Shown: piece by piece, positions 4,373 through 55,583 of the stretch
Layout of the letters: every line of letters begins with the position of its first letter
Position numbering within the stretch: the first letter of the stretch is position 1
Assembly: GCA_049890135.1 (NCBI GenBank)
Contig: JBMHCB010000006.1
Location: 47,607 to 111,606 of the forward strand
Direction of reading: 5' to 3'
DNA length: 64,000 nucleotides
Source: Porticoccaceae bacterium
GTDB taxonomy: Bacteria > Pseudomonadota > Gammaproteobacteria > Pseudomonadales > Porticoccaceae
Notes under the pieces: model-generated
What the model was told of the DNA's origin: nothing
Seen by the model: the letters and a program-made list of their open reading frames with translations, nothing else
Databases searched by the model: none
Program-made: the position numbers and the translations under genes

Positions 4373-4384
4373 AGGACTTAGACA

Positions 4385-4666: not shown

Positions 4667-4669
4667 GCT

Positions 4670-6115: not shown

Positions 6116-6119
6116 ATCC

Positions 6120-6611
6120 TTACGCTTGTGGAGTCTCAACCAGAAAGGGTTCAGGCTCCATAAATACCAATCGCACTATAATGCAGTCAGTTTGTGGTTT
6201 GACTGCCATCATTAAAACATTAATATCCCCATCAATTTGAACGCCGCTAGGTATATTAAATAAAACCTCACCGGTGTCTTGATTGGTTAGTGTGCGCAAT
6301 GTTTTAAGTTCTTTGTCTTTGCGAGCCTCAGTTTCAAACTTTTGGAGTAGAGCGCGAAGAGCCACATCGAAATTGGGAAAGTTAAATTGACCAGAGTATT
6401 GCGCTTTATCTATTTCAATTTTTATGGGCACCACTTCCCCAGTTTTGTCCGATCTAAGTTGCCCACCCTGTAATACTTCACCCTGTTTAAGTTGCTTAAA
6501 CAGTTTTTTTGCATCATTTGGATTTTGCTTAATAAAACCGGCAACAATAAGATTTACCCCGATATTAAACAGCTTTCTTGGGTCAATATTAATATTCTGT
6601 TCGATTTCCAT
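6120..6611 (-). CDS. Hypothetical protein with no family recognised
   Basis: 163-aa ORF with no signal peptide, convergent on pntB with a 4-nt gap between the stop codons. The call rests only on ORF length and the lack of a competing frame. Confidence 0.5.
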   Translation of the reverse strand: MEIEQNINIDPRKLFNIGVNLIVAGFIKQNPNDAKKLFKQLKQGEVLQGGQLRSDKTGEVVPIKIEIDKAQYSGQFNFPNFDVALRALLQKFETEARKDKELKTLRTLTNQDTGEVLFNIPSGVQIDGDINVLMMAVKPQTDCIIVRLVFMEPEPFLVETPQA

Positions 6612-6663
6612 TATTGGCTACTCAGGTAATCTAAAAGGCTCTTAGAGAGCTTTATTGCTCAGT

Positions 6664-7767: not shown

Positions 7768-7919
7768 AGTTTGTACCCAGATATAATGTTAAAAAAGATA
7801 AGTTAGAACTACTTAATCCATTATTTTATCAACACAACTGATGGCACGCAAAACAATCTAGACAGAATTCGATCTAACTGCGTACTATATTTATTAAAAT
7901 CTCTATTTAAAGGGTAAGA

Positions 7920-8816: not shown

Positions 8817-9047
8817 CCTATTTCATCAGACAGCCAGCAACATCCCAGATGCTGGTGAGCTTGAGGATGATAAATTGTTTGTTAAAGATGGGCTTGATGC
8901 CTTTGATACCCTTGGGCTAATGCCTAAAGATAATATAATTAATGATGTTAAGCCATCGGTGATTCATGGTGAAATTATCAATGATCCATCACCTAATGCA
9001 AAATAGATCTGCCTTTAAATAGTCATACTGGCAAAGTAAAACAAAAG

Positions 9048-9097
9048 ACCGACCTGTAGTTCATTAAATAATGTAAACTATGGGTTGGTTTTTTTTG
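9048..9097 (+). terminator. Candidate rho-independent terminator ending the yfcH-like transcription unit
   Basis: ACCGACC (9048-9054) pairs with GGTTGGT (9083-9089, one G-T pair) around an inner TAGTT/AACTA stem, followed by a T8 run. Confidence 0.4.
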
Positions 9098-9116
9098 TAA
9101 TGAGTTTTGCTTTTTT

Positions 9117-9887
9117 ATGCTGCTTAATTATTCAGAACAGGGTAGTGGTCATCCTGTTTTTCTTATTCATGGCTTGTTTGGTTCTCTGTCTAATTTGGGT
9201 AATTTAGCCCGCCATTTGGCAGCTGATTATCGCGTTATTTCGGTGGATCTTCGCAATCATGGTGACTCGCCTCATGATGATGAAATGAGCCTATTTTCTA
9301 TGGCTGAAGACATTGTCGAATTGATGGACTTGTTAAAGTTATCAACTGGACATTTTGTCGGACATTCTCTGGGTGGCAAGGTGGCGATGCAATTGGCAAT
9401 GACTAATGCTGATAGGGTTAAAAGCCTGATTGTCGTCGATATAGCACCTGTTATTTATGAGGATAATAATATAAATATAATCAATGCTTTATATAATTTA
9501 TCTAATGTATTGATTGAAGATAGAAAGGCAGCAGATTCTTATTTGTCTGAACAAGGTGTTGAGCTTTCAGTGAGAGCTTTTTTGTTGAAAAACTTGTGTC
9601 GTTTATCTGCTGGTACGTTTGGTCTTAAGCTGAATATTAAGGCGATAAAACAGCATTACAAGACTCAGATTGCTGTTGCACCAAAGGGTGAAAATTTTGT
9701 AGGGCCATGCTTATTTATAAAGGGTGAAAATTCTACTTATATTGAGTCGCAACACCTGCCCGTTATTCAGTCTATTTTCCACGAATCTTCGGTGCATATT
9801 GTTGAGGCTGTGGGTCATTGGTTACATGCAGAAAAACCAGAATTATTTAATCAACTTGTTTCGCAATTTATTGGTGAAATTTCCTGA
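9117..9887 (+). CDS. Alpha/beta-fold hydrolase (YbfF-like esterase)
   Basis: 256 aa with HGLFGS, the nucleophile elbow GHSLGG and the C-terminal catalytic His in GHWLHAEKP. Confidence 0.8.
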   Translation: MLLNYSEQGSGHPVFLIHGLFGSLSNLGNLARHLAADYRVISVDLRNHGDSPHDDEMSLFSMAEDIVELMDLLKLSTGHFVGHSLGGKVAMQLAMTNADRVKSLIVVDIAPVIYEDNNINIINALYNLSNVLIEDRKAADSYLSEQGVELSVRAFLLKNLCRLSAGTFGLKLNIKAIKQHYKTQIAVAPKGENFVGPCLFIKGENSTYIESQHLPVIQSIFHESSVHIVEAVGHWLHAEKPELFNQLVSQFIGEIS

Positions 9888-42827: not shown

Positions 42828-44528
42828 ATGATGATTGAGTCGCAAACATTCTGGCGCTGTTTTAGGACGGTTTTTGTTGCTGGCATTATGCTGGTTTTCC
42901 ATTCTATCGCGATTTGCAAGCCAATAGATTATTTTGTCAGTTCGTCAGAAGGCAATGACAAAAATAACGGTCTGTCTGAAAATAGTCCTTGGGCCACCTT
43001 AAAAAGAGTTAAAAAACAAAAGTTGCAGCCTGGAGATACGGTTCACTTTAAATCAGGTGACTTGTTTAAAGGGCAGCTTGTGGTTGACGAGTCTGGAACT
43101 GTAGAGGCTCCAATTCACTTCACAGCTTATGGCGATGGTGATTTGCCCATTATTGATGGTGCCGCCTTAGTTAGAGGTGCTTCACTTGCGGCCATTTTAG
43201 TAATAGATCAGGATCACCTTGAATTTAGTAAATTGAATATAAGAAACTTTCGCAAAAAGTCACGTGATTCTGTATCAGATTATGATGCTTTTGGCATTCT
43301 TGTAAAGAATACAGGCAAGCGAAATTTACGCGGATATAACCTTCATGATCTAGTGGTTGAAGAGGTTTTTCCAGTAAGAGCAAGAGCAATTAACAATAAA
43401 TCTGGTGAAAATTCTTTTAATAAGACACAAGTTTCGGGTATTCGTTTTGAGACCCTTCCTATTACATCTATAGATCAAGCTTTTAATACTGGAGATATCT
43501 ACATTCATGGTAATTTCTTGCGCTATACCGCTAGGTTTGGTATCGCTATTCGTCACAGGTCGTCAAAAATTGAAAGCATTATTGGTACATCGGCAAATTA
43601 CGATACTAATGTTCGCATTATAAATAATCGCTGCGAAGATACTGGCGGCAGCTGTGTATTAATGAGTGGCGTTATGAATGGGCTTCTCGAAAAAAATAGC
43701 TTTATTCGTTCCGGCGCCATGGTTGAGCCGGAACTATCTGTCAATCGAGGCAGTGGTGCATGGTTCTTTGGCAGTAAAAATATTGTTGCTCAGAAAAATT
43801 TTTCTTATGGCTCTCGGGGGCATAATGATTCTGCAGGGATGCACGTTGATTATGGTAATGAGAATGTACTTGTTCAGTATAACTTCACACTGATGAATGA
43901 AGGTTATGGTACGGAAATTCTGGGTAAAAATAAGAATATTATTTGGCGGCATAATATTAGTGTTCATGATGGGACTAGAGTTGTTGGTGTTGCTCGGCCA
44001 GAAGGCGGCAAAAGTATATTTCCGGGTAAAACCATCCATGTGAGTAACTTTTCTGTTCCTAAGCGAATTAAATCAGAGGGTGTTTATATTTATAACAATA
44101 CCTATGTTATTGCCAGTGACTCAGAGCCATTAATTGGCTTTATAGGTAAGGATATGCATCTTTGGAATAATATTTTTGTGGTTGAGGATGGTGGCTTATT
44201 GGCCAAAAATCTTAAAGCCGGATGGTCTAGAAAAAAGGACTTGGAAATAAGGGGTAATGTTTTTTCTGGGAATATATCAAAGAACTTTATTGACTCTGAT
44301 TTAAGTTCAACAATTTCTAAGATTAAATTTGAAGGTAATATAGGTAGTCCAGCGACTTACGCAGTGGCCCCCTCGGCAATAAAAAGTAATCATGATTTAA
44401 AAATAAGTCATCCCCGTTTTCCTTCTGCTGGAAAGGGGATTTTTAAACATATTTCTGAAATACCACAATTCGATATATTTGGTAATGCTTTAGATTCTGA
44501 AATTGCCTCATATGGTGCAGGGTACTAA
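42828..44528 (+). CDS. Secreted right-handed parallel beta-helix repeat protein (unassigned; candidate glycan-active enzyme)
   Basis: 566 aa. After a hydrophobic leader, the N-terminus has YFVSSSEGNDKNNGLSENSPWATLKRV...LQPGDTVHFKSGD, which is typical of pectate-lyase-fold proteins. Then come repeated short N/G/I/V-rich coils (IINNRCEDTGG, NIVAQKNFSYG, NVLVQYNF, IIWRHNISVHDG, IYNNTY, LWNNIF). The ATG lies 1 nt after the TBDR stop. Confidence 0.72.
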   Translation: MMIESQTFWRCFRTVFVAGIMLVFHSIAICKPIDYFVSSSEGNDKNNGLSENSPWATLKRVKKQKLQPGDTVHFKSGDLFKGQLVVDESGTVEAPIHFTAYGDGDLPIIDGAALVRGASLAAILVIDQDHLEFSKLNIRNFRKKSRDSVSDYDAFGILVKNTGKRNLRGYNLHDLVVEEVFPVRARAINNKSGENSFNKTQVSGIRFETLPITSIDQAFNTGDIYIHGNFLRYTARFGIAIRHRSSKIESIIGTSANYDTNVRIINNRCEDTGGSCVLMSGVMNGLLEKNSFIRSGAMVEPELSVNRGSGAWFFGSKNIVAQKNFSYGSRGHNDSAGMHVDYGNENVLVQYNFTLMNEGYGTEILGKNKNIIWRHNISVHDGTRVVGVARPEGGKSIFPGKTIHVSNFSVPKRIKSEGVYIYNNTYVIASDSEPLIGFIGKDMHLWNNIFVVEDGGLLAKNLKAGWSRKKDLEIRGNVFSGNISKNFIDSDLSSTISKIKFEGNIGSPATYAVAPSAIKSNHDLKISHPRFPSAGKGIFKHISEIPQFDIFGNALDSEIASYGAGY

Positions 44529-44532
44529 GGCC

Positions 44533-46077
44533 ATGAATACAAGAAACAGCAGGGTTCAAGATATGCATACTCAAACGATGGCTTTGGGTTTTTTTCGTAG
44601 GCCTTCTTTAGTTATATGCCTAGCCCTAGTGGCTTTATTCATTGCGCTAGTGACAGCCTGTTCCTCAAAGCCTATGAGTAGTGTTGTTAAGGAGACTATA
44701 AAGTCACCTAATTTTATAGTTATCCTAGCCGATGATTTAGGCTGGAGTAGCTTATCTGCTTCGATGGATAAAAATTACCCAAACGCAAAGAGTGACTATC
44801 ATAAAACACCCAATATTGACGCCATAGTAGAAGGTGGTATGCGCTTTTCCAGTGGCTATGCTGCCGCTCCTGTTTGCTCTCCAACGCGTTACAGTATTCA
44901 ATTTGGTAAATCGCCTGCGCGCTTAAAGCGCACCAGGGTTTTGGGTAAGAGTCATGTTGATCACAATCAGGTTGGTATCCCCCAAGTGCTTAAATCTATC
45001 GATAAGTCTTATCGTGCCGCCCACATAGGTAAGTGGCATATCGACAAAGATCCATCTGCTTATGGTTATGACGTTCACGATGGTATGACTAAAAACAAAG
45101 AGGGTGATTTTGATAATAATCAGACTCAATGGCATGGTTATTCTGATGAGGATCCAAAGCGAGTCAATTCAATGACCAAGCGCGCTGTAGAATTTATGCG
45201 CGAATCAGTTGAGCGAGAACAACCTTTCTTTCTTCAGCTCTCTCATTATGCTGTGCACTCGAACATTGTATACAGCGATGCATCATACGCTGGAGTAGGG
45301 AAGCGCGATAAAGGTAAGTTGCATAAGAACCAAGGTTATGCGGCTATGTTAGAAGATATGGATTTATCCATTGGTTCTTTACTTGAGGCGTATACTGAGC
45401 TTGATCTTGCGAAAAACACCTATATCATTTTTCTTTCAGACAACGGTGGCATGCCAGTACTCCCAATGCAGGTCAACAGAGGTAGACCCTATCGTGACGG
45501 GCTAAACTCGCCGCTTCTTCGTGGCAAATGGGATCTTACGGAAGGTGGCATTCGGGTTCCATTTGCAATTACTGGACCTACTATTAAAGCCGGTGGACAA
45601 AGTGATACGCCGGTTATGAGTTATGATATTTTGCCTACCGTTGCTGACCTTGCTGGATCGCAGAAGGGGTTACCTAAAAACCTTGATGGGGTAAGTTTCA
45701 AGCCACTATTTGAAGATCATAAGGCAGATTTAAATCGTCCTTTTGATGGTCTTGTATTCCACTTTCCACATTACAACAGGGTAGGTATGAATGAGCCGCA
45801 TTCAGCAATTAGGTATAAAAATTTCAAGTTAATCCATTTTCCAGCCTCTGGCCGCAATTTACTCTTTGATCTAGCAAAGGACCCTGGTGAGCTTGTTGAT
45901 CTATCTAAAAAGATGCCAAAAATGGTTGAATCATTGAACATCAAGTTAGATGCCTATCTTACGTCAGTTGACGCCGAGTTACCTGAAGACGCTGGCAGTT
46001 GGAAGAGAGTAGGGAACAATGGAAAAGTGAGAACTAAATTTTTTAAACGCTATGACCGTATTTTACAGGACAAGTAA
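44533..46077 (+). CDS. S1-family sulfatase, predicted lipoprotein
   Basis: I chose the start at ATG 44533, 4 nt after the upstream stop and preceded by AAGG. It has the lipobox LVTAC, NFIVILADDLGW and the Cys-type motif CSPTRYSIQFG. Confidence 0.88.
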   Translation: MNTRNSRVQDMHTQTMALGFFRRPSLVICLALVALFIALVTACSSKPMSSVVKETIKSPNFIVILADDLGWSSLSASMDKNYPNAKSDYHKTPNIDAIVEGGMRFSSGYAAAPVCSPTRYSIQFGKSPARLKRTRVLGKSHVDHNQVGIPQVLKSIDKSYRAAHIGKWHIDKDPSAYGYDVHDGMTKNKEGDFDNNQTQWHGYSDEDPKRVNSMTKRAVEFMRESVEREQPFFLQLSHYAVHSNIVYSDASYAGVGKRDKGKLHKNQGYAAMLEDMDLSIGSLLEAYTELDLAKNTYIIFLSDNGGMPVLPMQVNRGRPYRDGLNSPLLRGKWDLTEGGIRVPFAITGPTIKAGGQSDTPVMSYDILPTVADLAGSQKGLPKNLDGVSFKPLFEDHKADLNRPFDGLVFHFPHYNRVGMNEPHSAIRYKNFKLIHFPASGRNLLFDLAKDPGELVDLSKKMPKMVESLNIKLDAYLTSVDAELPEDAGSWKRVGNNGKVRTKFFKRYDRILQDK

Positions 46078-46121
46078 AGCACACATAGTAAATATATAAC
46101 TTAAACAAGAATTTTAATTTT

Positions 46122-48437
46122 ATGAAAAATGTATATTCCCTATCAATACTGACTATTGGAATTTTCACTTCAATTATTTCGTATTCTTCAGAGCCCTACA
46201 AGAATCCTGATCTCTCTGATGGGGCCCGTGTTGATGATTTGCTGTCAAGAATGACACTAATCGAAAAAGTTGGGCAGATGTCACAGTTTGTCGGTCCCGA
46301 GCATATAGCCCGCTCAGAAAAAAATATGACCATTGAAGAAATGCAGGCTGGTGATACGTTTGGGATTTATCCGAATTTACACTCTTCCCAAATTCCAGAT
46401 GTTATTAAAAAAGGAAGGGTAGGATCGTTCTTGCATGTGAAAAATCCTAAAGAAGCTAATTTTCTTCAGAAGCATGCTATTCAAAGTCGCCTTGGAATTC
46501 CGCTTTTAATAGGTATTGATGCAATTCATGGTAATGGCTTAGTAAAAGGGGCGACAATATACCCATCGCCAATCACCATGGCTAGTAGTTGGAATCTTGA
46601 CCTTGTTGAGCAAGCCAGCATTCAAACTGCAAAAGAGGTGAGGGCAAACGGCGCTCACTGGGCGTTTACTCCAAATATTGACATTGCAAGAGATGCGCGC
46701 TGGGGAAGAGTGGGTGAAACCTTTGGCGAAGATAAATTTCTTGTCTCTGAAATGGGCGTTGCGGTTATTAATGGTTTACAGCAGGGCGATTTTTCAAGCG
46801 ATACCAGTGTTCTTGCAACAGCAAAGCACTTTGTAGCGGGTAGTGATCCAATAAATGGACTTAATTTATCGCCTATGGATGTGTCAATTCGGTCTCTGCG
46901 AGAGGATTATTTCCCGCCTTTTGAACGGGCAATTGATGCCGGCGTTTTCACTTTAATGGCAGCGCATAATGAGGTAAATGGTGTACCAGCTCATGGTAAT
47001 CGTTTTTTATTAACCGAAGTGCTTCGAGATGAATGGAATTTCAAAGGGTTCGTGGTGAGTGACTGGTTGGATGTTGAGCGATTAAAAACTTATCATCGGA
47101 CAGCGCCAACGTTTAAAGAAGCGGTTTATCAAAGTGTTGATGCGGGAATGGATATGCATATGCATGGGCCAAAATTTTTAATGCCACTTGTAAGGTTGGT
47201 AAAACAAGGTCGAATTCCTGAATCAAGAATAGACGATGCGGTAAGACCAATACTGTTGGCTAAGTTTCGTTTGGGACTTTTTGAGAACCCTTTTGTCGAT
47301 TTATCCGATGCCAAGAAGCTAATGTTCAATAAAGATCATAAGCAAACGGCACTTGAGCTCGCCAGACAAGGTATTGTATTGCTTAAAAACTCGGACAAAA
47401 TTCTGCCTTTATCCGATGAAAAGCGTATCTTTATTACCGGACCCAATGCTAATAATCATTCGATTATGGGTGACTGGGTATTGCCACAACCAGAAGAAAA
47501 CATCACCACCATTGTCGAGGGCCTAAAAGAGGTAGCTAAGAGTTCGACCAAGATCGATTATTTTGATTTAAAAGGTAGCGTAAGAAGGATTCATTCTGAA
47601 CAAATTTTGAAAGCGGCTAAAAAGGCTAAGTCTGCTGATGTAGCCATTGTGGTAGTAGGCAGCAACCCTTTGAGATATGACAGAAAGGGTAAAACATCTG
47701 GAGAAAATGTTGCTCGTAGTTCTATAGGACTATTTGGTAACCAATTAGAGTTGGTGAGGGCTATTCAGGCATCTGGAACACCAACGATCGTTGTTCTTAT
47801 TAATGGCAGACCTCTCGCAGAGCCTTGGATTGTTGAGAATGTTGACGCTCTGATTGAAGCTTGGGAACCGGGTGCAATGGGCGGTAAAGCCTTAGCAGAA
47901 ATTGTATTTGGTGATGTTAATCCCAGCGGAAAACTACCGATTACAGTTCCATACAGTGTTGGGCATATGCAGGCTATTTATAATCATAAACCAAGCGCTT
48001 TAGTCAGAAAATATGCAGATGCACCTACTCATAACCTCTATGAATTTGGATATGGCTTAAGTTATTCTGAGTTTGAATATAATAATGTCAGATTATCCAA
48101 GTCTAAGATTGAAAATAATGAATCAACACAGCTTTTTGTGACTGTCAAAAATACAAGCCAGTATGCGGGTGATGAAATTGTTCAGCTCTATATTCGCGAC
48201 AAATTTTCACAAGTCACAAGACCTGTGAAAGAGTTAAAAGGATTTAAGCGAATATCATTAAAACCCGGTGAAGAGCGTGTGGTAAATTTTGCTATTACTC
48301 CAGATATGCTTGCCTATTATAATTTGAAGATGAATTGGGTTACAGAGCCTGGCGATTTTAGAATTATGGTTGGCGGTTCGTCTCGTAAAAGCGATTTAAA
48401 ATCAGTTAAGCTAAAAGTTAAAAAAACTAACAACTAG
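46122..48437 (+). CDS. Glycoside hydrolase family 3 (BglX-like beta-glycosidase)
   Basis: 771 aa with a signal peptide, LIEKVGQM, IDAIHGN, the nucleophile motif GFVVSDW and a C-terminal fibronectin-like domain. Confidence 0.92.
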   Translation: MKNVYSLSILTIGIFTSIISYSSEPYKNPDLSDGARVDDLLSRMTLIEKVGQMSQFVGPEHIARSEKNMTIEEMQAGDTFGIYPNLHSSQIPDVIKKGRVGSFLHVKNPKEANFLQKHAIQSRLGIPLLIGIDAIHGNGLVKGATIYPSPITMASSWNLDLVEQASIQTAKEVRANGAHWAFTPNIDIARDARWGRVGETFGEDKFLVSEMGVAVINGLQQGDFSSDTSVLATAKHFVAGSDPINGLNLSPMDVSIRSLREDYFPPFERAIDAGVFTLMAAHNEVNGVPAHGNRFLLTEVLRDEWNFKGFVVSDWLDVERLKTYHRTAPTFKEAVYQSVDAGMDMHMHGPKFLMPLVRLVKQGRIPESRIDDAVRPILLAKFRLGLFENPFVDLSDAKKLMFNKDHKQTALELARQGIVLLKNSDKILPLSDEKRIFITGPNANNHSIMGDWVLPQPEENITTIVEGLKEVAKSSTKIDYFDLKGSVRRIHSEQILKAAKKAKSADVAIVVVGSNPLRYDRKGKTSGENVARSSIGLFGNQLELVRAIQASGTPTIVVLINGRPLAEPWIVENVDALIEAWEPGAMGGKALAEIVFGDVNPSGKLPITVPYSVGHMQAIYNHKPSALVRKYADAPTHNLYEFGYGLSYSEFEYNNVRLSKSKIENNESTQLFVTVKNTSQYAGDEIVQLYIRDKFSQVTRPVKELKGFKRISLKPGEERVVNFAITPDMLAYYNLKMNWVTEPGDFRIMVGGSSRKSDLKSVKLKVKKTNN

Positions 48438-48491
48438 GAATCAGTCACAAAGTATTGAGTTCCCTTATTAATAAAAAAGGAAGAAAAAGAA

Positions 48492-50099
48492 ATGCATATA
48501 TTTTCCTCAACACATAAAAGTTGGACTAAAGTGATAAAATTCATATTAGCCATTGTTTGTGCTAATTCTCTATTATTTTTCGCTAGCAATTCGGTTGCTA
48601 AAGAGCCACTTAATGTCATTTATATCCTAACGGATGATCAAAGATACGACGCTTTGGGTTTTATGAACCCTGAAGTTGATACGCCACATATGGATAAACT
48701 TGCAGAAAGAGGTGTGCATTTCAAAAATAGCTTTGTGACAACAGCACTTTGTTCGCCAAGTCGAGCGTCTATTTTAACTGGGCAATATATGCATACCCAT
48801 GGGGTGGTTGATAATAACAAGCCAGCTAAGGAAGGAACCATCTACTTCCCAAGTTACTTACAGCAGGTTGGTTATGAAACCGCTTTCTTTGGTAAATGGC
48901 ATATGGGCGGTCATCACGATGATCCTCAGCCTGGCTTTGATCATTGGCTTAGTTTTGCTGGTCAGGGAGATTATTATCCTGTCCGTAAGCATGGTGGCGG
49001 ATTCAGTCGTTTTAATATCAATGGTAAGCGTGTTAAGCAAAAAGGTTACATAACAGATGAGCTTACAGACTATACATTGCAGTGGCTAACTGCCGAGCGA
49101 GATAGCAGAAAACCTTTCTTTGTGTATCTATCACACAAAGCAGTTCATGCCAATTTTGATCCGGCCAAGCGCCATAAAGACCAATACAGTGATGTTGAAA
49201 TTAAAGTACCTGCTAGTCAGGCCGATACCCCAGAAAATTACAAAGGCAAACCAATGTGGGTTAAAAATCAGCGCAATAGCTGGCATGGCGTTGATTTCCC
49301 TTACCACAGTGACTTAAATGTTACTGAATATAAGCGGCAATATAACCGCGCCCTTTCAGCAGTAGATGACAGTCTTGGTAGAATTACAGCTTGGTTGAAA
49401 GCCAATAACCTTGATCACAATACAGCAGTAATTCTTATGGGTGATAATGGCTTCTTATTCGGTGAACATGGGCTGATTGACAAGCGAAATGCTTACGAGG
49501 AATCTATGCGTGTTCCTCTGGTTGCTTACATACCGGGCGCCAAGCAAAATTATGTTGTTGAAGAGATGGCCGCTAATATTGATATTGCGCCTACGATTCT
49601 TGATATCGCAGGTATCAAGGAGCAACCGCCACAATTTGTTGGTTCGAGCTTATTACCACTAGCCAAGGGTGAAGTCGTTAATGATTGGCGCGATAATCTA
49701 CTCTATGAATATTATTGGGAATTTAACTTTCCGCATACGCCAACAACATTAGCTATTCGCTCGGATGATTTTAAGCTAATTCAATATCATGGTGTATGGG
49801 ACACGGATGAGCTTTTTGATTTAAAAAATGATCCTAAAGAAATGAATAACCTTATCGATGATCCTCGCTATTTAAAAATTAAAGTTGAATTGCGCAAGGC
49901 TTTGTTTGCTCGTTTAGCTGAAGATGGTGAGCATTCTGTTCCCTATACAAAGAAATTTAGTCGCGGTGCGGTGTTGCGTCATGGCGATCGTTCAAAAGCT
50001 GCCGAATTTCCAGATGATTGGTTGCGACAAGGGAATGAAAAGGATCTGAGAAAGTTTTTCACGCCTGATGATAGGCGATTAAAGCGCGGTAATGATTAG
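48492..50099 (+). CDS. S1-family sulfatase (N-acetylglucosamine-6-sulfatase-like)
   Basis: 535 aa with a signal peptide, NVIYILTDDQRYD and the Cys-type motif CSPSRASILTG. Confidence 0.9.
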   Translation: MHIFSSTHKSWTKVIKFILAIVCANSLLFFASNSVAKEPLNVIYILTDDQRYDALGFMNPEVDTPHMDKLAERGVHFKNSFVTTALCSPSRASILTGQYMHTHGVVDNNKPAKEGTIYFPSYLQQVGYETAFFGKWHMGGHHDDPQPGFDHWLSFAGQGDYYPVRKHGGGFSRFNINGKRVKQKGYITDELTDYTLQWLTAERDSRKPFFVYLSHKAVHANFDPAKRHKDQYSDVEIKVPASQADTPENYKGKPMWVKNQRNSWHGVDFPYHSDLNVTEYKRQYNRALSAVDDSLGRITAWLKANNLDHNTAVILMGDNGFLFGEHGLIDKRNAYEESMRVPLVAYIPGAKQNYVVEEMAANIDIAPTILDIAGIKEQPPQFVGSSLLPLAKGEVVNDWRDNLLYEYYWEFNFPHTPTTLAIRSDDFKLIQYHGVWDTDELFDLKNDPKEMNNLIDDPRYLKIKVELRKALFARLAEDGEHSVPYTKKFSRGAVLRHGDRSKAAEFPDDWLRQGNEKDLRKFFTPDDRRLKRGND

Positions 50100-50139
50100 G
50101 ACGATTCTTTTTAGGGTCATCCTTAAATAGGGGAATCTT

Positions 50140-51102
50140 ATGAAATCACCATTTAAGCTTACGTTAGTAATTACGGTTACTGCTTTTTCTGCTGGTTGCA
50201 GTAAAAATATTGAGCCTATGGTGTGTTTATCCGATTTAGATGCCGCCGCTACACAAGATATTAATGGTGGTCAGTTTAGTTTTGGCGAAAATCGATATTA
50301 TGCCAATGAGAAACCGGTCCAATTAATTGAGGTTAAAGATTTTAATATTGATCGTGCAGAAGTGACTAATCGGGAGTTTCAAGCGTTTGTTGAAGCCACC
50401 GGTTATGTGACTGATGCAGAACGAGGTCTTTCTGAAAAAGAGTTTCCAAATGTACCAGCAGAATTTCGTGTTCCAGGTTCAATGGTGTTTGTTTCGCCAG
50501 ATTCCGAACAAAAAAATGCATCTGCTTGGTGGCAGTTTATAGCCGGTGCTAACTGGCGACATCCCTTAGGACCAAATAGCTCTATTGACGGCAAAGATGC
50601 TTTCCCTGTAGTTCAAGTGACCTATGATGATGCCTTAGCCTATGCCAATTGGATTGGACGAAGATTGCCCACTGAAGCGGAGTGGGAGTATGCATCCAGA
50701 GGTGGATTAGAGCGTGCATCATATTCATGGGGAGAAGAACCACCTCATCAAGGTATATCCAAAGCCAATACTTGGCAGGGAAATTTCCCTTTCAATAATA
50801 TGAAAGAAGATGGCTTTGTGGGTAGTTCGCCTGTTGGTTGTTTTCCTGCAAATGGATATGGTTTGTATGATATGACAGGAAATGTATGGGAATGGACTGA
50901 AACTGCCTATGGTCCCGATCATCAAAGAGATTATGGTCAGAAGGGCTATGACCCTCTACAACCAGGCATAGAAGTAAAAACCCTGAAAGGCGGGTCTTTT
51001 TTATGTTCAGATAACTACTGTCAGCGTTTCCGTCCTGCATCTAGGCAGGGACAGGATCTTACTGTTGCCACATCACATATAGGCTTTAGGACCGCAAAAT
51101 AG
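50140..51102 (+). CDS. Formylglycine-generating enzyme (SUMF1/FGE family), predicted lipoprotein
   Basis: 320 aa with the lipobox FSAGC, the motifs RLPTEAEWEYASRGG and GNVWEWT, and the catalytic Cys pair in GGSFLCSDNYCQRFRPASR. Confidence 0.9.
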   Translation: MKSPFKLTLVITVTAFSAGCSKNIEPMVCLSDLDAAATQDINGGQFSFGENRYYANEKPVQLIEVKDFNIDRAEVTNREFQAFVEATGYVTDAERGLSEKEFPNVPAEFRVPGSMVFVSPDSEQKNASAWWQFIAGANWRHPLGPNSSIDGKDAFPVVQVTYDDALAYANWIGRRLPTEAEWEYASRGGLERASYSWGEEPPHQGISKANTWQGNFPFNNMKEDGFVGSSPVGCFPANGYGLYDMTGNVWEWTETAYGPDHQRDYGQKGYDPLQPGIEVKTLKGGSFLCSDNYCQRFRPASRQGQDLTVATSHIGFRTAK

Positions 51103-51205
51103 CGATTATTAAATAGCTCCTATAAAATACTTATTAAAAAAAAGTACCCATATAAGCATGAGTTAGTTTTTAATTGGCTTAATAGTTATTACTATTTTGT
51201 TAGAC

Positions 51206-51240
51206 CAAAAAAATGGCCGCATTAGCGGCCATTTTTATTT
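51206..51240. terminator. Bidirectional rho-independent terminator between the FGE gene and the convergent repeat-protein gene
   Basis: ATGGCCGC (51213-51220), loop ATTA, GCGGCCAT (51225-51232), with an A7 run before and a T-run after. Confidence 0.7.
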
Positions 51241-51286
51241 TTAGTAGACTCTCTAAGCTTTGAAAATCTAAATAACAGTTTGTTGA

Positions 51287-53824
51287 TTAAGGCATAAGGC
51301 TAATGATATAAGCTTCAACATCTGCCGCTGATTGACGAGATGCTCCAGTCGCAACAGCTCCATCAATCAATGACGCGCCTCGCAAACCAAATAGATAACG
51401 TAACATCATCAAACCATCTGTCAAAGCATCAACATTATCACTACCATCGATATCAGCAAACGAAGTAGTAGAGTCGGCAACATTTGCTTCCACTTCTTCT
51501 AGCGTTAATGATGAGCCTGAGGCTATAGCGCCATCAGTCAGTGATGCACCACGTAAACCAAAGGTGTATCGAAGCAGTAGCAGGCCGTCGGTAAGTGCGT
51601 CAGCATTACCATCGTTATCAAAGTCCCAGCTACCCTCTGAAATTGGCATATTATATGCCTCAGGCGCAAATCCATGACTGGCAGCTGTGCTTACTGATGA
51701 GAAGCCAATAGTAGTACTCTCAACAGAAACCTCTTCAGCAGTATTGAAATTAATGGTTAACAAAGACTCTGGTAGTTGGCCCGGCCAGTCACCAAACAAT
51801 GCAGCCCAACTAGCAGATAAATACATGTCTGTAGATGAATCATTATCAGCATCATCAGTATCTTCAAATGGACCACTAGCATCAATATTATCAGCAGCGA
51901 ATACTTCTGCAAATTCTACAAAGGTTAACACTGAGCTATTGTAGTGAACTTTTAAACCAAGACCAGTAAGTGTTTCATCGTTATCTGAAGCGTTATAACT
52001 AACCGTTACAGAAGTAGCCTTTCCTGGCATTGCTGAAGGGTTACCAGATACCGATATCATTTGTTTTGGAAGTTCACCAACATTTGGATCCAACGGATCA
52101 CCATCAAGGCCATCTTCAACGCCATCACCATCATCGTCAGTGTCCGAATTATTACCTATACCATCATTATCAGTATCAACTGATTCAGCAGGGTCGTCTG
52201 GAAAGGCATCTTCATCATCAAAAAAACCATCATTATCAGAATCAATTCTCTCTGGTTCTGGATATATCTGTGTTTCATTGATAGAAAGTGCATCAAATCT
52301 TACATCAACACTGGATAGTTGAACTTTTACAGCTCTATCAAATGTTACAGCTGGAACTGTAATTGTATTATCACCAAGCACTAGGTCTTGAGCATTAGCA
52401 AAGAAATCACTGCCATTGGCTGTTGTTTTATAGACCCTATAGCTTGCACCGCCTTCAGGTAATTCTGTGACATTCATTGATAATGATTGCTCAGCTTGGC
52501 TAGAGGCACCATCATTTATAAGGGTTAAGTTAATAACTCTAGGCCAATCCGCATTGGTTGTTGGGGTGAATGCTGAGCTTTCGCCTGCCGTGATGCCAGC
52601 CTGAGGATCTTCCGGATCAGTAACCCCCGGATAGAGCTGGTCTCCATTGACAGATAAAACGTCAAATCTTATATCAGAACTAGAGAACTGAAGTTTAACG
52701 GCTCTATCAAAAGCCACACCGGCAACTGTAACAATATTATTGCCAAGTACTAATTCTTGAGCATCGCCAAAGAAATCATTGCCATTAGCAGTGGTTTTAT
52801 AAACTCTATAGGTCGCTCCGCCTTCTGGAAGCTCAGTGATATTGATTGATAATGTCTGAGCACCTTGACTAGAAGCCCCATCCGCTACAAGTGCCAAATC
52901 AATCACCTTAACCCAGGTTGCGTGATCTTTGTCATAAAATGCTGAACTATCGCCTAATGTGATGCCCGCTGCGGGTTCTTCTGGAGCAGGCGCTTCTGGG
53001 TAAAGCTGAGCTCCATTAACAGAGAGGGCGTCAAATCTTACATTAGCGCTAGACAGCTGAATTTTTACAGCTCTATCAAATGCAACAGCTGCAACGGTAA
53101 CAGTGTTATTACCCAGTACTAAGTCTTGTGCATTGGCAAAAAAATCACTGCCATTAGCTGTTGTTTTATAGACTCTATAACTCGCACCACCCACCGGCAA
53201 ATCTGTGACATTCATTGATAGTGTTTGCTCAGCTTGGCTTGAAGCACCCTCAGATATAAGTGTTAATGTAATAACTCTGGTCCAGCTTGGATTAGTTGTT
53301 GGACTAAATGCTGTGCTTTCGCCTGCGGTGATACCTGCTTGAGGATCGACTGGATCAGCCATTTCAGGGTAGAGTTGATCTCCATTAACTGAGAGGGTGT
53401 CAAAGCTTATATTGGGACTAGATAGTTGAATTTTAACGGCTCTATCAAAAGCGACCCCTGCAACAGTAATAATATTGTTGCCAAGAAATAATTCCTGAGC
53501 ATTGCCAAAGAAATCACTTCCGTTAGCTGTCGTTTTGTAAACCCTATAGTTTGCTCCGCCTTCTGGAAGCCCAGTAACATTGATTGATAATGTCTGAGCA
53601 CCTTGACTAGATGCGCCATCAGAGACACGTGCAAGCGTTATAACATTTGTCCATGATTCATTCGTGCTTGATGTAAATTCAGAGCTTTCGCCTACAGTAG
53701 TCGAAGCTATAGCAGAAGCAGTGAATGTTAAAAAGAAAACTGTCGCAAACAATACTTTGGCCGCAGCACCTATACGTTTAAGTAAGTTCGAAAAGAAACT
53801 TATATTAGAAGTTAGATGATACAT
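51287..53824 (-). CDS. Secreted mosaic protein: 4 x 123-aa modules, acidic DxDxDG Ca-binding linker, cohesin-like module, double dockerin-like C-terminus
   Basis: 845 aa with a signal peptide (...TFTASAIAST). YRVYKTTANG recurs at aa 93, 216, 339 and 462. The linker is DSDNDGFFDDEDAFPDDPAESVDTDNDGIGNNSDTDDDGDGVEDGLDGD. Two segments are DFDNDGNADALTDGLLLLRYTFGLRGASL and DIDGSDNVDALTDGLMMLRYLFGLRGASL. Confidence 0.8.
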   Translation of the reverse strand: MYHLTSNISFFSNLLKRIGAAAKVLFATVFFLTFTASAIASTTVGESSEFTSSTNESWTNVITLARVSDGASSQGAQTLSINVTGLPEGGANYRVYKTTANGSDFFGNAQELFLGNNIITVAGVAFDRAVKIQLSSPNISFDTLSVNGDQLYPEMADPVDPQAGITAGESTAFSPTTNPSWTRVITLTLISEGASSQAEQTLSMNVTDLPVGGASYRVYKTTANGSDFFANAQDLVLGNNTVTVAAVAFDRAVKIQLSSANVRFDALSVNGAQLYPEAPAPEEPAAGITLGDSSAFYDKDHATWVKVIDLALVADGASSQGAQTLSINITELPEGGATYRVYKTTANGNDFFGDAQELVLGNNIVTVAGVAFDRAVKLQFSSSDIRFDVLSVNGDQLYPGVTDPEDPQAGITAGESSAFTPTTNADWPRVINLTLINDGASSQAEQSLSMNVTELPEGGASYRVYKTTANGSDFFANAQDLVLGDNTITVPAVTFDRAVKVQLSSVDVRFDALSINETQIYPEPERIDSDNDGFFDDEDAFPDDPAESVDTDNDGIGNNSDTDDDGDGVEDGLDGDPLDPNVGELPKQMISVSGNPSAMPGKATSVTVSYNASDNDETLTGLGLKVHYNSSVLTFVEFAEVFAADNIDASGPFEDTDDADNDSSTDMYLSASWAALFGDWPGQLPESLLTINFNTAEEVSVESTTIGFSSVSTAASHGFAPEAYNMPISEGSWDFDNDGNADALTDGLLLLRYTFGLRGASLTDGAIASGSSLTLEEVEANVADSTTSFADIDGSDNVDALTDGLMMLRYLFGLRGASLIDGAVATGASRQSAADVEAYIISLMP
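52256..53692 (-). repeat. Intragenic tandem repeat, 369-nt period, about 3.9 copies, with A-B-A-B relatedness
   Basis: Protein landmarks are spaced exactly 123 aa apart. At DNA level, GCTCTATCAAAAGC... starts at 53439 and again at 52701, which is 738 nt or 2 x 369. Repeats 1/3 share SQGAQTLSIN and FFG-AQEL, while repeats 2/4 share SQAEQ-LSMN and FFANAQDL. Confidence 0.88.
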
Positions 53825-54365: not shown

Positions 54366-54438
54366 AGTAGTAATCGTCGCTTACTGTTAACCATTGATTT
54401 TATTGATGATTCATATAGCAATAGCTATGGAGAAAAAA

Positions 54439-55110
54439 ATGAAAAAACCTTTTGTTAATATTGTTTCTTTGGTAGTGGTTCTTATGGGAGTCGCACCTTC
54501 TATTTATGCAGAAAAAAATGAAACGAACCTCGATGCACATGTTCATGGACTATCTGAGTTAACAATTGCCTCAGAAGGTGAGGATCTCAAGATTCAACTT
54601 ACATCTCCCGCCATGAATATAGTGGGTTTTGAATATAAGGCCGTTAGCAAGAAAGATATCGAGGCTATTAAGAATGCTGAGTCAATTTTAAATCAGCCAG
54701 AGGTACTATTTTTGTTCTCTGATAATGGTTGTAAGCCTATTAATATTGATTTGGATATATCAGGTCTTGTTGAGGAGGATGATCACGGGCAGCATGATAA
54801 TAAACAGAATCATCACAAAGATCATGACGACCACGAAGATCATGATGATCATAAAGAACATGATGACCATAAAGATCACGAAAATGACAAACATGAGGAT
54901 CATCACAAGCATGATAAGCATGAAGATCACAGTGAAATAGTTGCTAACTACAGTTACCGCTGTATGGACATTGCCAAGCTGTCTTCAATACAAGTCTCTT
55001 TATTTGAAGCTTTCTCAGGCATTCATAAGATTCATACAATGTGGCTAACGCCTTCAAAGCAGGGCTCGGTGACGCTCACAGCAAAGAATCAGATGGTAGA
55101 GTTTAGATAA
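54439..55110 (+). CDS. Periplasmic His-rich metal-binding protein (DUF2796 / ZrgA-like)
   Basis: It has a signal peptide (LVVVLMGVAPSIYA) and an HVHG motif near the mature N-terminus. I counted 17 His by hand in a 49-residue H/D/K/E tract (aa 131-179 of the tracked ORF). I chose the start at ATG 54439, which has a GGAG upstream. Confidence 0.8.
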   Translation: MKKPFVNIVSLVVVLMGVAPSIYAEKNETNLDAHVHGLSELTIASEGEDLKIQLTSPAMNIVGFEYKAVSKKDIEAIKNAESILNQPEVLFLFSDNGCKPINIDLDISGLVEEDDHGQHDNKQNHHKDHDDHEDHDDHKEHDDHKDHENDKHEDHHKHDKHEDHSEIVANYSYRCMDIAKLSSIQVSLFEAFSGIHKIHTMWLTPSKQGSVTLTAKNQMVEFR

Positions 55111-55115
55111 TTAAT

Positions 55116-55583
55116 ATGAATAAACTCGAAGATATGATTCACCATGCAGAGCGGCAATGTAAAGCGCGTGGCGCGCGTTTAACTGTTAAGCGTAAACAGA
55201 TTTTAATGGGACTTATACAGTCCAATAAGGCGCTCTCAGCTTATGATTTAATTAAATATTGCAAAGATGAGTACGATGAAACCATTCCTGCAATGTCGGT
55301 CTATCGCATCTTGGAATTTCTACAAGATCAGCTTCTGGTACATAAGTTAAATCTCGCTAATAAATATGTTGCTTGTATGCATATCAGTTGCGACCACGAT
55401 CATGAAGTACCGCAATTTTTAATTTGTAGAAATTGTAGTAAGGTCAAAGAAGTCAGTATCAACCAATCAACTATTTTAGACATTAATGAAACAGTTAAGA
55501 ATGCAGGCTATGACCTCTATAAGCCCCAAGTGGAATTAAACTGCTTGTGTGAAACTTGTATTACCACTAACGCATCCACTTGA
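55116..55583 (+). CDS. zur: Zinc uptake regulator (Fur family)
   Basis: 155 aa with a winged-helix N-terminus (LSAYDLIKYC...MSVYRILEFL) and Cys/His metal sites (CDHDHE, CRNC, CLCETC). It lies 5 nt downstream of the ZrgA-like gene, in a zinc context. Confidence 0.85.
   Translation: MNKLEDMIHHAERQCKARGARLTVKRKQILMGLIQSNKALSAYDLIKYCKDEYDETIPAMSVYRILEFLQDQLLVHKLNLANKYVACMHISCDHDHEVPQFLICRNCSKVKEVSINQSTILDINETVKNAGYDLYKPQVELNCLCETCITTNAST

What the first reader, a model, noticed from the sequence alone, without database searches (positions are those of the whole stretch)
51287..52246. Cohesin-like and dockerin-like modules in one secreted protein of a Gram-negative aerobe
Seen: after the repeats comes an acidic DxDxDG-rich linker that resembles a thrombospondin type 3 repeat (aa 527-580). 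A module of about 145 aa follows (aa 586-729: ISVSGNPSAMPGKATSVTVSYNASDNDETLTGLGLKVHYNSSVLTFVEF...), which reads like a cohesin beta-sandwich. Last come two copies of D-x-D-x-(D/S)-(G/D)-N-x-DALTDGL(L/M)-(L/M)-LRY-x-FGLRGASL, spaced 57 aa apart, which read as a duplicated dockerin-type Ca-binding segment.

Established knowledge: cohesin-dockerin pairs build cellulosomes in anaerobic Firmicutes, and isolated cohesin-like and dockerin-like modules are known outside cellulosomes with largely unknown function.

Inference: having both partners in one polypeptide could allow self-polymerisation or anchoring of a substrate-capture scaffold on the cell surface, beside a TBDR-based glycan locus.
Basis: partly seen in the sequence, partly recalled or inferred. 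Interest (0 to 1): 0.68.

Follow-up and report, generated by a model that had tools for sequence, protein, structure and literature searches.

The report
Fused cohesin-like/dockerin-like tag, SAR92 exoprotein
The end of this secreted marine-bacterial protein is a true cohesin-fold module fused directly to an enlarged, dockerin-like calcium-binding module, and the same tag recurs on many secreted enzymes and binding proteins of the SAR92/Porticoccaceae group, suggesting an untested cellulosome-like way of holding proteins together at a Gram-negative cell surface.

Summary
ORF 51287-53824 (-) encodes 845 aa: a signal peptide, four ~125-aa repeats, an acidic TSP3-like linker, a ~144-aa module and two DxDxDG..DALTDGLLLLRY units 57 aa apart. 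AlphaFold2 (pLDDT 94.5) plus Foldseek place aa 586-729 among cohesins (27 of the top 28 PDB hits). Its own Pfam score is sub-threshold, but 20 of 62 relatives hit PF00963. The last 116 aa fold confidently (pLDDT 97.5) into a six-helix domain with no significant PDB fold match. Dockerin_1 is the nearest family (80/101 relatives hit weakly; hhalign 65%), so it is an expanded dockerin-like double F-hand, not a canonical dockerin. The module family is large (4,936 clusters) and concentrated in Porticoccaceae/SAR92, with at least 5-11 genes per MAG. It sits at the N- or C-terminus of GH16, GH81, Glyco_hydro_cc, CBM, LRR, CotH, di-haem and lipoprotein genes. The cohesin-dockerin junction has an invariant length. 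The passenger repeat carries T9SS tails in Flavobacteria, which supports an anchoring/docking role. Cohesin-dockerin binding, self-polymerisation and surface location remain untested. Verdict: new variant of a known kind, moderately interesting.

The parts
51287..53824 (-). Whole gene: 845-aa secreted modular protein (stop codon 51287-51289)
   Evidence: ORF listing; 99%- and 81%-identical full-length relatives P0001 and P0002
53705..53824 (-). Predicted Sec signal peptide (aa 1-40, ...TASAIA|S)
   Evidence: Read directly from the translation (n-region KR, hydrophobic core, AxA site); no predictor was run
52247..53704 (-). Four diverged ~125-aa repeats (aa 41-526), a passenger domain of unknown fold, probably glycan-binding
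   Evidence: Internal self-hit at 66% identity. The same domain occurs as a single copy on Glyco_hydro_cc+CBM6 enzymes and on T9SS-tailed flavobacterial proteins. No Pfam or PDB sequence match
52070..52246 (-). Acidic DxDxDG-rich TSP3-like linker (aa 527-585)
   Evidence: TSP_3 E=0.0034, sub-threshold; the same linker precedes the cohesin-like module in many relatives
51638..52069 (-). Cohesin-fold module (aa 586-729)
   Evidence: AF2 pLDDT 94.5 with 10 beta-strands; Foldseek: 27 of the top 28 PDB hits are cohesins, prob 1.0, target TM 0.60-0.72; Pfam Cohesin E=0.0053 for this copy, 20/62 relatives hit with best E=1.5e-6
51779..51874 (-). Most conserved stretch inside the cohesin-like module: acidic loop DxDxDNDxxTD followed by WAxLFGxWPG
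   Evidence: Invariant D75, T80, D81, W88, P96 in alignment A1; translation; unstructured loop 70-81 in the model
51290..51637 (-). Expanded dockerin-like module (aa 730-845): an internal duplication of [13-residue Ca loop + helix + short helix + helix]
   Evidence: AF2 pLDDT 97.5, pTM 0.89, six helices; no significant PDB fold match; nearest families are Dockerin_1, then EF-hand; hhalign 64.6% to real type-I dockerins
51560..51625 (-). F-hand segment 1: DFDNDGNADALTDGLLLLRYTF
   Evidence: invariant positions
51389..51454 (-). F-hand segment 2: DIDGSDNVDALTDGLMMLRYLF (57 aa after segment 1)
   Evidence: invariant positions
51209..51236 (.). Perfect 12-bp hairpin with flanking A- and T-runs: a likely bidirectional terminator between this gene and the convergent FGE gene

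Best explanation
The region encodes the C-terminal 'docking cassette' of a secreted, non-catalytic, four-repeat (probably glycan-binding) protein. The cassette is a TSP3-like acidic linker, then a cohesin-fold beta-sandwich, fused with no linker to a 116-aa dockerin-derived double F-hand Ca2+-binding module. The cassette is one instance of a modular tag that Porticoccaceae/SAR92 bacteria attach to many exported proteins. The dockerin-like module occurs alone on enzymes and lipoproteins, or together with one or more cohesin-like modules on CBM-rich, adhesin-like proteins. The most likely mechanism is that the dockerin-like module is a Ca2+-dependent protein-protein docking element whose receptor is the cohesin-like module of another protein in the same proteome. 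Under that model, enzymes carrying only the dockerin-like module, adaptors carrying both modules such as this protein, and lipoprotein- or membrane-tethered members assemble into a cell-associated complex next to TonB-dependent uptake systems. Shown here: the folds, the family distribution, the architectures and the invariant junction. Inferred: Ca2+ binding, cohesin-dockerin recognition, surface location and glycan binding by the repeats.
For: Cohesin fold; relatives reach Pfam Cohesin (precomputed PF00963). Dockerin affinity: the only non-EF-hand PDB sequence hits of the family profile are the C. thermocellum Xyn10B dockerin (E=0.02-0.05). Dockerin_1 is the top Pfam family for 80/101 modules (best E=4.9e-5). 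hhalign aligns both F-hands to both dockerin segments (64.6%, E=6e-5). System-like distribution: 335 genomic relatives, nearly all in Porticoccaceae/SAR92/UBA7375, with a lower bound of 5-11 genes per MAG. Division of labour resembles a cellulosome: the dockerin-like module alone on GH16+CBM6, Glyco_hydro_cc+CBM6, DHOR, CotH, beta-propeller and LRR proteins; both modules on GH81 and on CBM48/CBM20/CBM4_9/cadherin proteins; proteins with two cohesin-like plus one dockerin-like module; small cohesin-only ORFs adjacent to genes carrying both modules. Possible anchors: lipoproteins with the dockerin-like or the cohesin-like module, and a TM-anchored cohesin-like protein. There is a single dockerin-like type regardless of context. 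The module is terminal, at either end (273 C-terminal, 54 N-terminal). The same passenger repeat carries T9SS sorting domains in Flavobacteria and a different conserved tail in Verrucomicrobia, so this position is normally occupied by a targeting or anchoring module. Locus synteny with the sulfatase/GH3/TBDR cluster is conserved.
Against: No binding evidence of any kind exists, and AF-Multimer was not available. The dockerin-like module has no significant structural match to solved dockerins (best dockerin E=5.7, prob 0.07), and its similarity to dockerins is not clearly stronger than to generic EF-hands (calmodulin E=0.07 against dockerin E=0.02). The cohesin-dockerin junction is invariant (136/164 with zero extra residues), unlike classical cohesins and dockerins on flexible linkers. 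This could mean the cohesin-like module is a fixed structural partner of its own dockerin-like module (as in X-Doc dyads) rather than a free receptor. Proteins have at most 2-3 cohesin-like modules, so there is no large scaffoldin. Many cargo proteins are not carbohydrate-active enzymes. The repeat domain's glycan binding is inferred only from co-occurrence.
Confidence: 0.5

Rival explanations
1. The dockerin-like module is a general cell-envelope retention module that binds a non-protein surface component (LPS, capsule or EPS, for example through Ca2+ bridges). The fused cohesin-like module is merely its structural support, analogous to the X-module in type II X-Doc dyads, and is not a receptor.
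For: Cargo is very broad and includes proteins that are not carbohydrate-active enzymes. The module is always terminal and may be at either end. The cohesin-dockerin junction is invariant, implying one rigid unit, and pTM is 0.74 for the two-domain model. The module occupies the position of T9SS tails in other phyla. It has no fold match to solved dockerins.
Against: Cohesin-like modules also occur free of the dockerin-like module: on long linkers in tandem arrays, at the opposite end of a protein (L036, cohesin-like module, seven Ig-like domains, then dockerin-like module), as small stand-alone ORFs and on lipoproteins. A purely structural helper would not be expected to do that. Lipoproteins already have an anchor, yet some still carry the dockerin-like module.
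Confidence: 0.3
2. This is the first reader's specific model: the protein self-polymerises head-to-tail (dockerin-like module of one chain into the cohesin-like module of the next), forming a homopolymeric substrate-capture fibre.
For: One module of each type per chain. A zero-length junction would sterically disfavour binding within one chain and favour binding between chains, by analogy with short-linker diabodies (inference). There is a single dockerin-like type, so nothing is known to prevent self-recognition.
Against: Close relatives of the same protein lack the cohesin-like module entirely (repeats plus dockerin-like module, P0003-P0011), so polymerisation is not essential to the passenger's function. 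With 5-11 or more paralogues sharing one dockerin-like type, heterotypic networks are more likely than homopolymers. There is no oligomer evidence.
Confidence: 0.15
3. The cohesin-like and dockerin-like modules bind each other within one chain, forming a closed, inert, Ca2+-stabilised terminal 'cap' that only confers stability or protease resistance on exported proteins.
For: Invariant junction; high confidence and moderately high pTM for the didomain model.
Against: About half of the family members carry the dockerin-like module without any cohesin-like module (172 against 154 in the sampled set), and these solo modules do not differ in sequence. The dockerin-like module therefore does not need a partner in the same chain.
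Confidence: 0.1

Closest known systems
Cellulosomal cohesin modules (Pfam PF00963; e.g. C. thermocellum CipA cohesin 1AOH, C. cellulolyticum 1G1K/2VN5, R. flavefaciens ScaC 5LXV)
   Same: Size (~144 aa) and the beta jelly-roll fold. They are the top Foldseek matches (prob 1.0, target TM 0.60-0.72). There is a weak, nearly full-length Pfam match, and relatives score significantly.
   Different: 10-16% sequence identity. This copy is below Pfam's cut-off. It has a conserved acidic DxDxDNDxxTD loop followed by WAxLFGxWPG, which I do not recognise from classical cohesins (own knowledge). It is fused directly to the next module instead of sitting on a flexible linker. The host is a marine Gram-negative bacterium.
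Type I dockerins (Pfam PF00404; e.g. Xyn10B dockerin 1OHZ_B, CelD, Cel48S)
   Same: Duplicated Ca-loop-plus-helix (F-hand) segments with a D-x-D/N-x-D/N-G ... D ... LLxxRYLxG pattern. Dockerin_1 is the nearest family by profile searches. The module is terminal on secreted enzymes.
   Different: 116 aa rather than ~65 aa. Segments are 57 aa apart rather than ~35 aa. Loops are 13 residues rather than 12. Two extra helices follow each F-hand. There is no significant fold match. The module is often N-terminal. Cohesin binding is untested.
Non-cellulosomal cohesin- and dockerin-like modules (Saccharophagus degradans 2-40; Archaeoglobus fulgidus; the survey by Peer et al. 2009, cited from memory)
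   Same: Cohesin-like and dockerin-like modules outside anaerobic Firmicutes, sometimes in one polypeptide. The S. degradans genome paper reports 2 dockerin-like and 6 cohesin-like ORFs, TSP3/cadherin modules on beta-1,3-glucanases and a COG3488 oxidoreductase-like domain, and leaves binding untested (PMC2386152). The A. fulgidus pair is functional (PMC12484212).
   Different: Here the modules form a large, lineage-concentrated family (thousands of clusters; at least 5-11 genes per MAG) with a fixed fused dyad and an expanded dockerin-like architecture. I found no paper linking cohesin or dockerin to SAR92/Porticoccaceae.
Type II X-module-dockerin (X-Doc) dyads of cellulosomal scaffoldins
   Same: A beta-sandwich module fused immediately N-terminal to a dockerin and acting with it as one unit at the C-terminus of a scaffold protein (analogy from my own knowledge; the invariant junction is).
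   Different: The beta-sandwich here is cohesin-like, not an X-module. The packing of the two modules could not be inspected because no coordinates or PAE were available.
Lineage-specific terminal sorting/anchoring domains (T9SS type A CTD, TIGR04183)
   Same: They occupy the same position on homologous passenger repeats in Flavobacteria and are attached to a wide range of exoproteins.
   Different: No sequence similarity. The dockerin-like module also works from the N-terminus, which a C-terminal sorting signal would not.

Membership tests
Cohesin (PF00963) | ~140-150-aa nine-stranded beta jelly-roll resembling solved cohesins | tested here: met
   AF2 pLDDT 94.5; 27 of the top 28 Foldseek PDB hits are cohesins, prob 1.0
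Cohesin (PF00963) | Sequence match to the Pfam model at the curated threshold | tested here: inconclusive
   This copy scores 17.4 bits against a cut-off of 24.1 (E=0.0053, near full length). 20/62 close relatives hit at E<0.01, best 1.5e-6, and several carry a precomputed PF00963 call
Cohesin (PF00963) | Binds a dockerin with high affinity | not testable with these tools
   No multimer prediction or experiment was available
Dockerin type I (PF00404) | Two duplicated Ca-binding loop + helix (F-hand) segments | tested here: met
   Segments at aa 734-755 and 791-812; invariant D/D/A/L/D/G/F positions duplicated at a 57-aa offset
Dockerin type I (PF00404) | Compact ~60-70-aa module, segments ~35 aa apart, 12-residue EF-hand-type loops | tested here: not met
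   116 aa, 57-aa offset, six helices; all alignments to real dockerins need one extra residue per loop and a 21-residue linker insertion
Dockerin type I (PF00404) | Sequence match to the Pfam model at the curated threshold | tested here: not met
   This copy scores 14.3 bits against a cut-off of 22.9 (E=0.049). 80/101 relatives hit at E<=1, best 4.9e-5
Dockerin type I (PF00404) | Fold similarity to solved dockerins | tested here: not met
   Foldseek: no hit at E<=0.001; dockerins rank 15-20 with E 5.7-6.1, prob <=0.07, target TM <=0.58
Dockerin type I (PF00404) | Remote homology by profile-profile comparison | tested here: inconclusive
   hhalign 64.6%, E=6.3e-5, 57 columns, against a thin profile of 4 real dockerins
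Thrombospondin type 3 repeat (PF02412) | Match to the Pfam model; DxDxDGxxDxxD Ca-binding repeats | tested here: inconclusive
   17.5 bits against a cut-off of 25, E=0.0034 on the isolated linker; the motif is visible in the sequence
Cellulosome-type assembly system | Dockerin-bearing enzymes plus cohesin-bearing non-catalytic scaffold and anchor proteins in one proteome | tested here: met
   Dockerin-like module on GH16, Glyco_hydro_cc and GH81; cohesin-like modules on CBM, cadherin and Ig proteins, tandem arrays, lipoproteins and small ORFs
Cellulosome-type assembly system | Demonstrated cohesin-dockerin recognition and multi-enzyme complex formation | not testable with these tools
   Needs biochemistry or multimer modelling
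C-terminal sorting signals (T9SS CTD, PEP-CTERM, GlyGly-CTERM and similar) | Match to the NCBIfam/TIGRFAM sorting-domain models and an obligatory C-terminal position | tested here: not met
   No NCBIfam hit; the module is N-terminal in 54 and internal/other in 53 of 380 occurrences

The most novel reading that the evidence does not exclude
SAR92/Porticoccaceae, among the most abundant coastal bacterioplankton, use a diverged cohesin/expanded-dockerin pair to assemble a Ca2+-dependent, outer-membrane-tethered multi-protein complex. The complex would combine beta-glucanases, CBM-rich adaptors such as this protein, and other exoproteins. It would be a Gram-negative, aerobic, marine analogue of the cellulosome that couples extracellular glycan capture and cleavage to TonB-dependent uptake. 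The 116-aa module would define a new dockerin class.
Probability: 0.35. Interest if true: 0.85.

Novelty: new variant of a known kind. Interest (0 to 1): 0.6.

Why it matters
How free-living marine Gammaproteobacteria keep secreted polysaccharide-degrading enzymes and their products close to the cell is an open question. They lack both the Bacteroidota SusCD/T9SS display machinery and a Gram-positive wall. A proteome-wide cohesin/dockerin-like tagging system in SAR92 would provide a concrete, testable mechanism, since recombinant modules are small and the folds are predicted with high confidence. It would extend the cohesin-dockerin principle to aerobic Gram-negative plankton. It would add a new, larger dockerin architecture with potential use as an orthogonal affinity pair. 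It would also improve annotation of thousands of 'hypothetical' marine proteins that currently have no Pfam domain for this module.

Tried and rejected
1. Whole-protein Pfam and NCBIfam scans gave only spurious or weak hits (DUF7728 on a 28-residue stretch). Segment-wise scans were needed.
2. PDB sequence searches with the single C-terminal sequence and with the repeat region found nothing.
3. The CLIPPER/DUF11 hit (9ifr, Foldseek rank 9) was followed up in the paper. I rejected it as a generic CnaA-like sandwich: it is one hit against 27 cohesins, Pfam gave no DUF11 hit on this module, and the sequence-level signal points to Cohesin.
It returned a single protein. I fell back on 4 real dockerin sequences taken from PDB alignments, so the hhalign result rests on a thin profile.
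5. I looked for further cassette genes in the window by tblastn and by HMM at E<=10, and found none.
6. I tested whether dockerin-like modules next to a cohesin-like module and solo modules are different types, by analogy with type I/II dockerins. They are not.
7. A sorting-signal interpretation (T9SS, PEP-CTERM) was rejected because there is no model match and the module also occurs N-terminally.
8. There is no tandem DNA repeat in the gene.
9. The complete genome CP179212 could not be retrieved as an annotated record.
10. Literature searches for cohesin or dockerin together with SAR92 or Porticoccaceae returned nothing.
Full report
**Observation.** The window carries an 845-aa ORF on the minus strand (51287..53824). 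The finding's coordinates correspond to aa 527 through the stop codon. The protein begins with a Sec-type signal peptide, read from the sequence (…TASAIA|S). Next come four diverged ~125-aa repeats (internal self-match at 66% identity; no DNA-level tandem repeat). These are followed by an acidic DxDxDG-rich linker (aa 527-585), a ~144-aa module (aa 586-729) and a 116-aa tail (aa 730-845). The tail contains DFDNDGNADALTDGLLLLRYTF and DIDGSDNVDALTDGLMMLRYLF, with invariant positions offset by exactly 57 residues.

**Direct database tests.** The whole protein hits neither family. Scanned as separate segments:

| Segment | Pfam family | E-value | Bits | Curated cut-off |
|---|---|---|---|---|
| Middle module (aa 586-729) | Cohesin | 0.0053 | 17.4 | 24.1 |
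| Linker (aa 527-585) | TSP_3 | 0.0034 | 17.5 | 25 |
| Tail (aa 730-845) | Dockerin_1 | 0.049 to 1.1 | 14.3 | 22.9 |

The Cohesin match covers nearly the full length of the model. A PDB sequence search with the single sequence finds nothing.

**Cohesin-like module.** A search with the last 257 aa returns 1,524 relatives. Many are named Porticoccaceae or Cellvibrionales, and several carry a precomputed PF00963 call. In a 62-sequence alignment (A1), 20 members hit Pfam Cohesin (best E=1.5e-6). AlphaFold2 on that alignment gives pLDDT 94.5 and pTM 0.74, with ten beta-strands followed by six helices. In Foldseek against the PDB, 27 of the top 28 hits are cohesins (C. cellulolyticum, R. flavefaciens ScaC, C. 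thermocellum CipA/OlpA, C. perfringens), with probability 1.0 and target TM 0.60-0.72. The exception is a DUF11/CLIPPER domain, a generic CnaA-like sandwich. I conclude that aa 586-729 is a genuine cohesin-fold module and a distant member of that family. Its most conserved feature is an acidic loop, DxDxDNDxxTD, followed by WAxLFGxWPG. I do not recognise this from classical cohesins, and it may be an extra Ca2+ site or a functional site.

**Dockerin-like module.**
- **Fold.** Modelled alone (A2), it folds with very high confidence (pLDDT 97.5, pTM 0.89) into six helices. It is an internal duplication of [Ca loop, 12-residue helix, 4-residue helix, 10-12-residue helix].
- **Structure search.** Foldseek finds no significant PDB match. 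Solved dockerins appear only at ranks 15-20 (E 5.7-6.1, probability <=0.07).
- **Sequence profiles.** These do point to dockerins. The family profile's best PDB hits are the Xyn10B dockerin of 1OHZ/2CCL (E=0.02-0.05), just ahead of calmodulin EF-hands.
- **Pfam.** Dockerin_1 is the commonest match among 101 modules (80 hits at E<=1, best 4.9e-5), followed by EF-hand_1 and FG-GAP Ca-loop families.
- **Profile-profile.** A local hhalign against four real type-I dockerins aligns both F-hands to both dockerin segments with 64.6% probability. The alignment needs a 21-residue linker insertion and one extra residue in each loop.

The module is therefore best described as an expanded, dockerin-derived double F-hand domain. 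It fails several defining features of a canonical dockerin (size, spacing, loop length, HMM threshold, fold match), so I do not file it as a member of that family. It has no Pfam model of its own, yet it is large: an exhaustive phmmer search finds 4,936 representative clusters at E<=1e-3 and 2,735 at E<=1e-10.

- **Taxonomic spread.** A scan of one genome per species finds 335 genomic relatives. Nearly all are in Porticoccaceae/SAR92/UBA7375 MAGs, with outliers in Cocleimonas, Thiomicrospira and one other MAG. There are many loci per genome.
- **Census.** An HMM census of the 76 retrieved loci finds 118 module-bearing ORFs, a lower bound of 5-11 per MAG.
- **Architectures.** They include X-cohesin-dockerin, cohesin-cohesin-dockerin, the dockerin-like module alone at the C-terminus, the dockerin-like module alone immediately after the signal peptide, cohesin-Ig×7-dockerin, and small cohesin-only ORFs next to genes carrying both modules.
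- **Cargo.** Dockerin-tagged cargo includes GH16+CBM6, Glyco_hydro_cc+CBM6, di-haem peroxidase-like (DHOR), CotH, beta-propeller and BspA-LRR proteins. GH81 and CBM48/CBM20/CBM4_9/cadherin proteins carry both modules.
- **Possible anchors.** Some members are lipoproteins (lipobox, ~55-aa linker, dockerin-like module). One lipoprotein and one TM-anchored protein carry a cohesin-like module.
- **One module type.** Dockerin-like modules fused to a cohesin-like module and solo ones are indistinguishable: about 50% identity within and between classes, and no class-specific positions.
- **Fixed junction.** The cohesin-dockerin junction is essentially invariant (136/164 with zero extra residues, 160/164 within ±3). 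Linkers between tandem cohesin-like modules range from 2 to 165 aa.
- **Position.** The module is terminal in most proteins: 273 C-terminal, 54 N-terminal, 53 other.

**The passenger and the locus.**
- **Relatives in Porticoccaceae.** Close relatives of this protein carry the same repeats with only the dockerin-like module (P0003-P0011). Glyco_hydro_cc+CBM6 enzymes carry an N-terminal dockerin-like module and one repeat.
- **Relatives in other phyla.** Flavobacterial relatives end in a T9SS type A sorting domain (TIGR04183, E=1e-8 to 1e-12). Verrucomicrobial relatives end in their own conserved ~45-aa tail. The position held here by the cassette is thus normally held by a lineage-specific targeting or anchoring module.
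- **Neighbouring genes.** The gene lies convergent to, and separated by a perfect hairpin terminator (51209-51236) from, a cluster of FGE, three sulfatases, GH3, a TBDR and a further sulfatase.
- **Synteny.** This arrangement recurs in another Porticoccaceae MAG (L013). There the neighbours are 74-87% identical but the cassette is only ~51% identical.
- **Organism.** A sulfatase 99% identical to one in an HTCC2207-type MAG (L070) places the window in the SAR92 clade.
- **Copy number.** The window contains no other cassette gene.

**Mechanism.** The best-supported reading (confidence about 0.5) is that the dockerin-like module is a Ca2+-dependent docking element and the cohesin-like modules are its receptors. 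Enzymes carrying only the dockerin-like module, adaptors carrying both modules such as this four-repeat protein, and lipid-anchored members would then form a cell-associated complex near TonB-dependent uptake systems. What is shown is the folds, family size, architectures, conserved synteny and invariant junction. What is inferred is Ca2+ binding, cohesin-dockerin recognition, surface location and glycan binding by the repeats.

The rivals are:
- **Envelope binding (0.3).** The dockerin-like module binds a non-protein envelope component, and the fused cohesin-like module is an X-module-like support.
- **Homopolymer (0.15).**
- **Inert cap (0.1).** The two modules bind each other within one chain and only stabilise the protein.

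The invariant junction can be read either way. It may mean fixed packing within one chain, or it may sterically force binding between chains. I could not resolve this because no coordinates, PAE or multimer prediction were available.

**Comparison with what is known.** Cohesin- and dockerin-like modules outside cellulosomes, including both in one polypeptide, are known: A. fulgidus (functional pair mentioned in PMC12484212) and the survey by Peer et al. 2009 (cited from memory). For the related marine degrader Saccharophagus degradans, the genome paper lists two dockerin-like and six cohesin-like ORFs, TSP3/cadherin modules on beta-1,3-glucanases and a COG3488 oxidoreductase-like domain, and it explicitly leaves binding untested (PMC2386152). 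I found no paper connecting cohesin or dockerin with SAR92/Porticoccaceae. Four things appear new here: the scale and lineage concentration of the system, the expanded 116-aa dockerin-like architecture with no solved structural counterpart, the obligate zero-linker cohesin-dockerin dyad, and the use of the module at either terminus, including on lipoproteins.

**Verdict.** This is a new variant of a known kind. Interest is about 0.6. The strongest reading not excluded is a Gram-negative marine cellulosome analogue (probability about 0.35), which would be of high interest if true.

Noticed in passing
window 51779-51874 (-), aa 651-682: Inside the cohesin-like module, the most conserved stretch is an acidic loop DxDxDNDxxTD followed by WAxLFGxWPG (invariant D75, T80, D81, W88, P96 in A1). 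It may be an additional Ca2+ site or a functional site. I do not recognise it from classical cohesins.
   Followed up: partly
P0012-P0120 (verrucomicrobial relatives of the N-terminal repeats): Opitutales/Puniceicoccaceae relatives all end in a conserved ~45-aa tail (…LQFSxDLxSWTSxxSxxSPYxxxxxxxxFYRxxxxE). It has no NCBIfam match, nor any precomputed Pfam call listed for these proteins. It may be an undescribed lineage-specific C-terminal sorting or anchoring domain.
   Followed up: partly
P0090, P0097, P0101: These relatives end in a single Cys-flanked F-hand (CPTDLDGDGxTAVGDLLxxLGxFGQxCE). It looks like a minimal, disulfide-clamped, dockerin-like tail, different from the 116-aa module.
   Followed up: no
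L013 compared with window 44503-53824: In the syntenic locus of another Porticoccaceae MAG, the neighbouring FGE, sulfatase and GH3 genes are 74-87% identical to the window's, but the cassette of the adjacent gene is only ~51% identical. Either the surface protein evolves much faster or a paralogue has replaced it at the same position.
   Followed up: partly
window 51209-51236: A perfect 12-bp GC-rich hairpin flanked by an A-run and a T-run lies between the convergent FGE gene and the cassette gene. It is a likely bidirectional intrinsic terminator.
   Followed up: partly
window 42828-44528 (+): A 566-aa ORF immediately downstream of the TonB-dependent receptor, and overlapping the next sulfatase ORF by 26 nt, has no Pfam hit at E<=1e-5. 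It may be an uncharacterised TBDR-associated binding protein.
   Followed up: no
L057 minus-strand ORF (354 aa) and L065 minus-strand ORF (>=599 aa): A cohesin-like module sits at the C-terminus of a protein with an N-terminal TM/signal-anchor and a long S/N-rich linker. Another sits on a lipoprotein (…ALAAC|TDSK). These are candidate membrane anchors for the proposed system.
   Followed up: partly
L036 (Porticoccaceae nBUS_09 complete genome, CP179212:1508474-1521253): Four module-bearing genes lie within a 12.8-kb stretch, three of them consecutive: a small cohesin-only ORF (82-642), an X-cohesin-dockerin gene (4267-6786), a cohesin-Ig×7-dockerin gene (6822-9380) and a gene with an N-terminal dockerin-like module (9778 onward). 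The layout recalls scaffoldin gene clusters.
   Followed up: partly
window 54394-55583 (+): A ZrgA-family zinc-uptake protein and a Fur-family (probably Zur) regulator lie directly upstream of, and divergent from, the cassette gene. No link to the finding is apparent.
   Followed up: no
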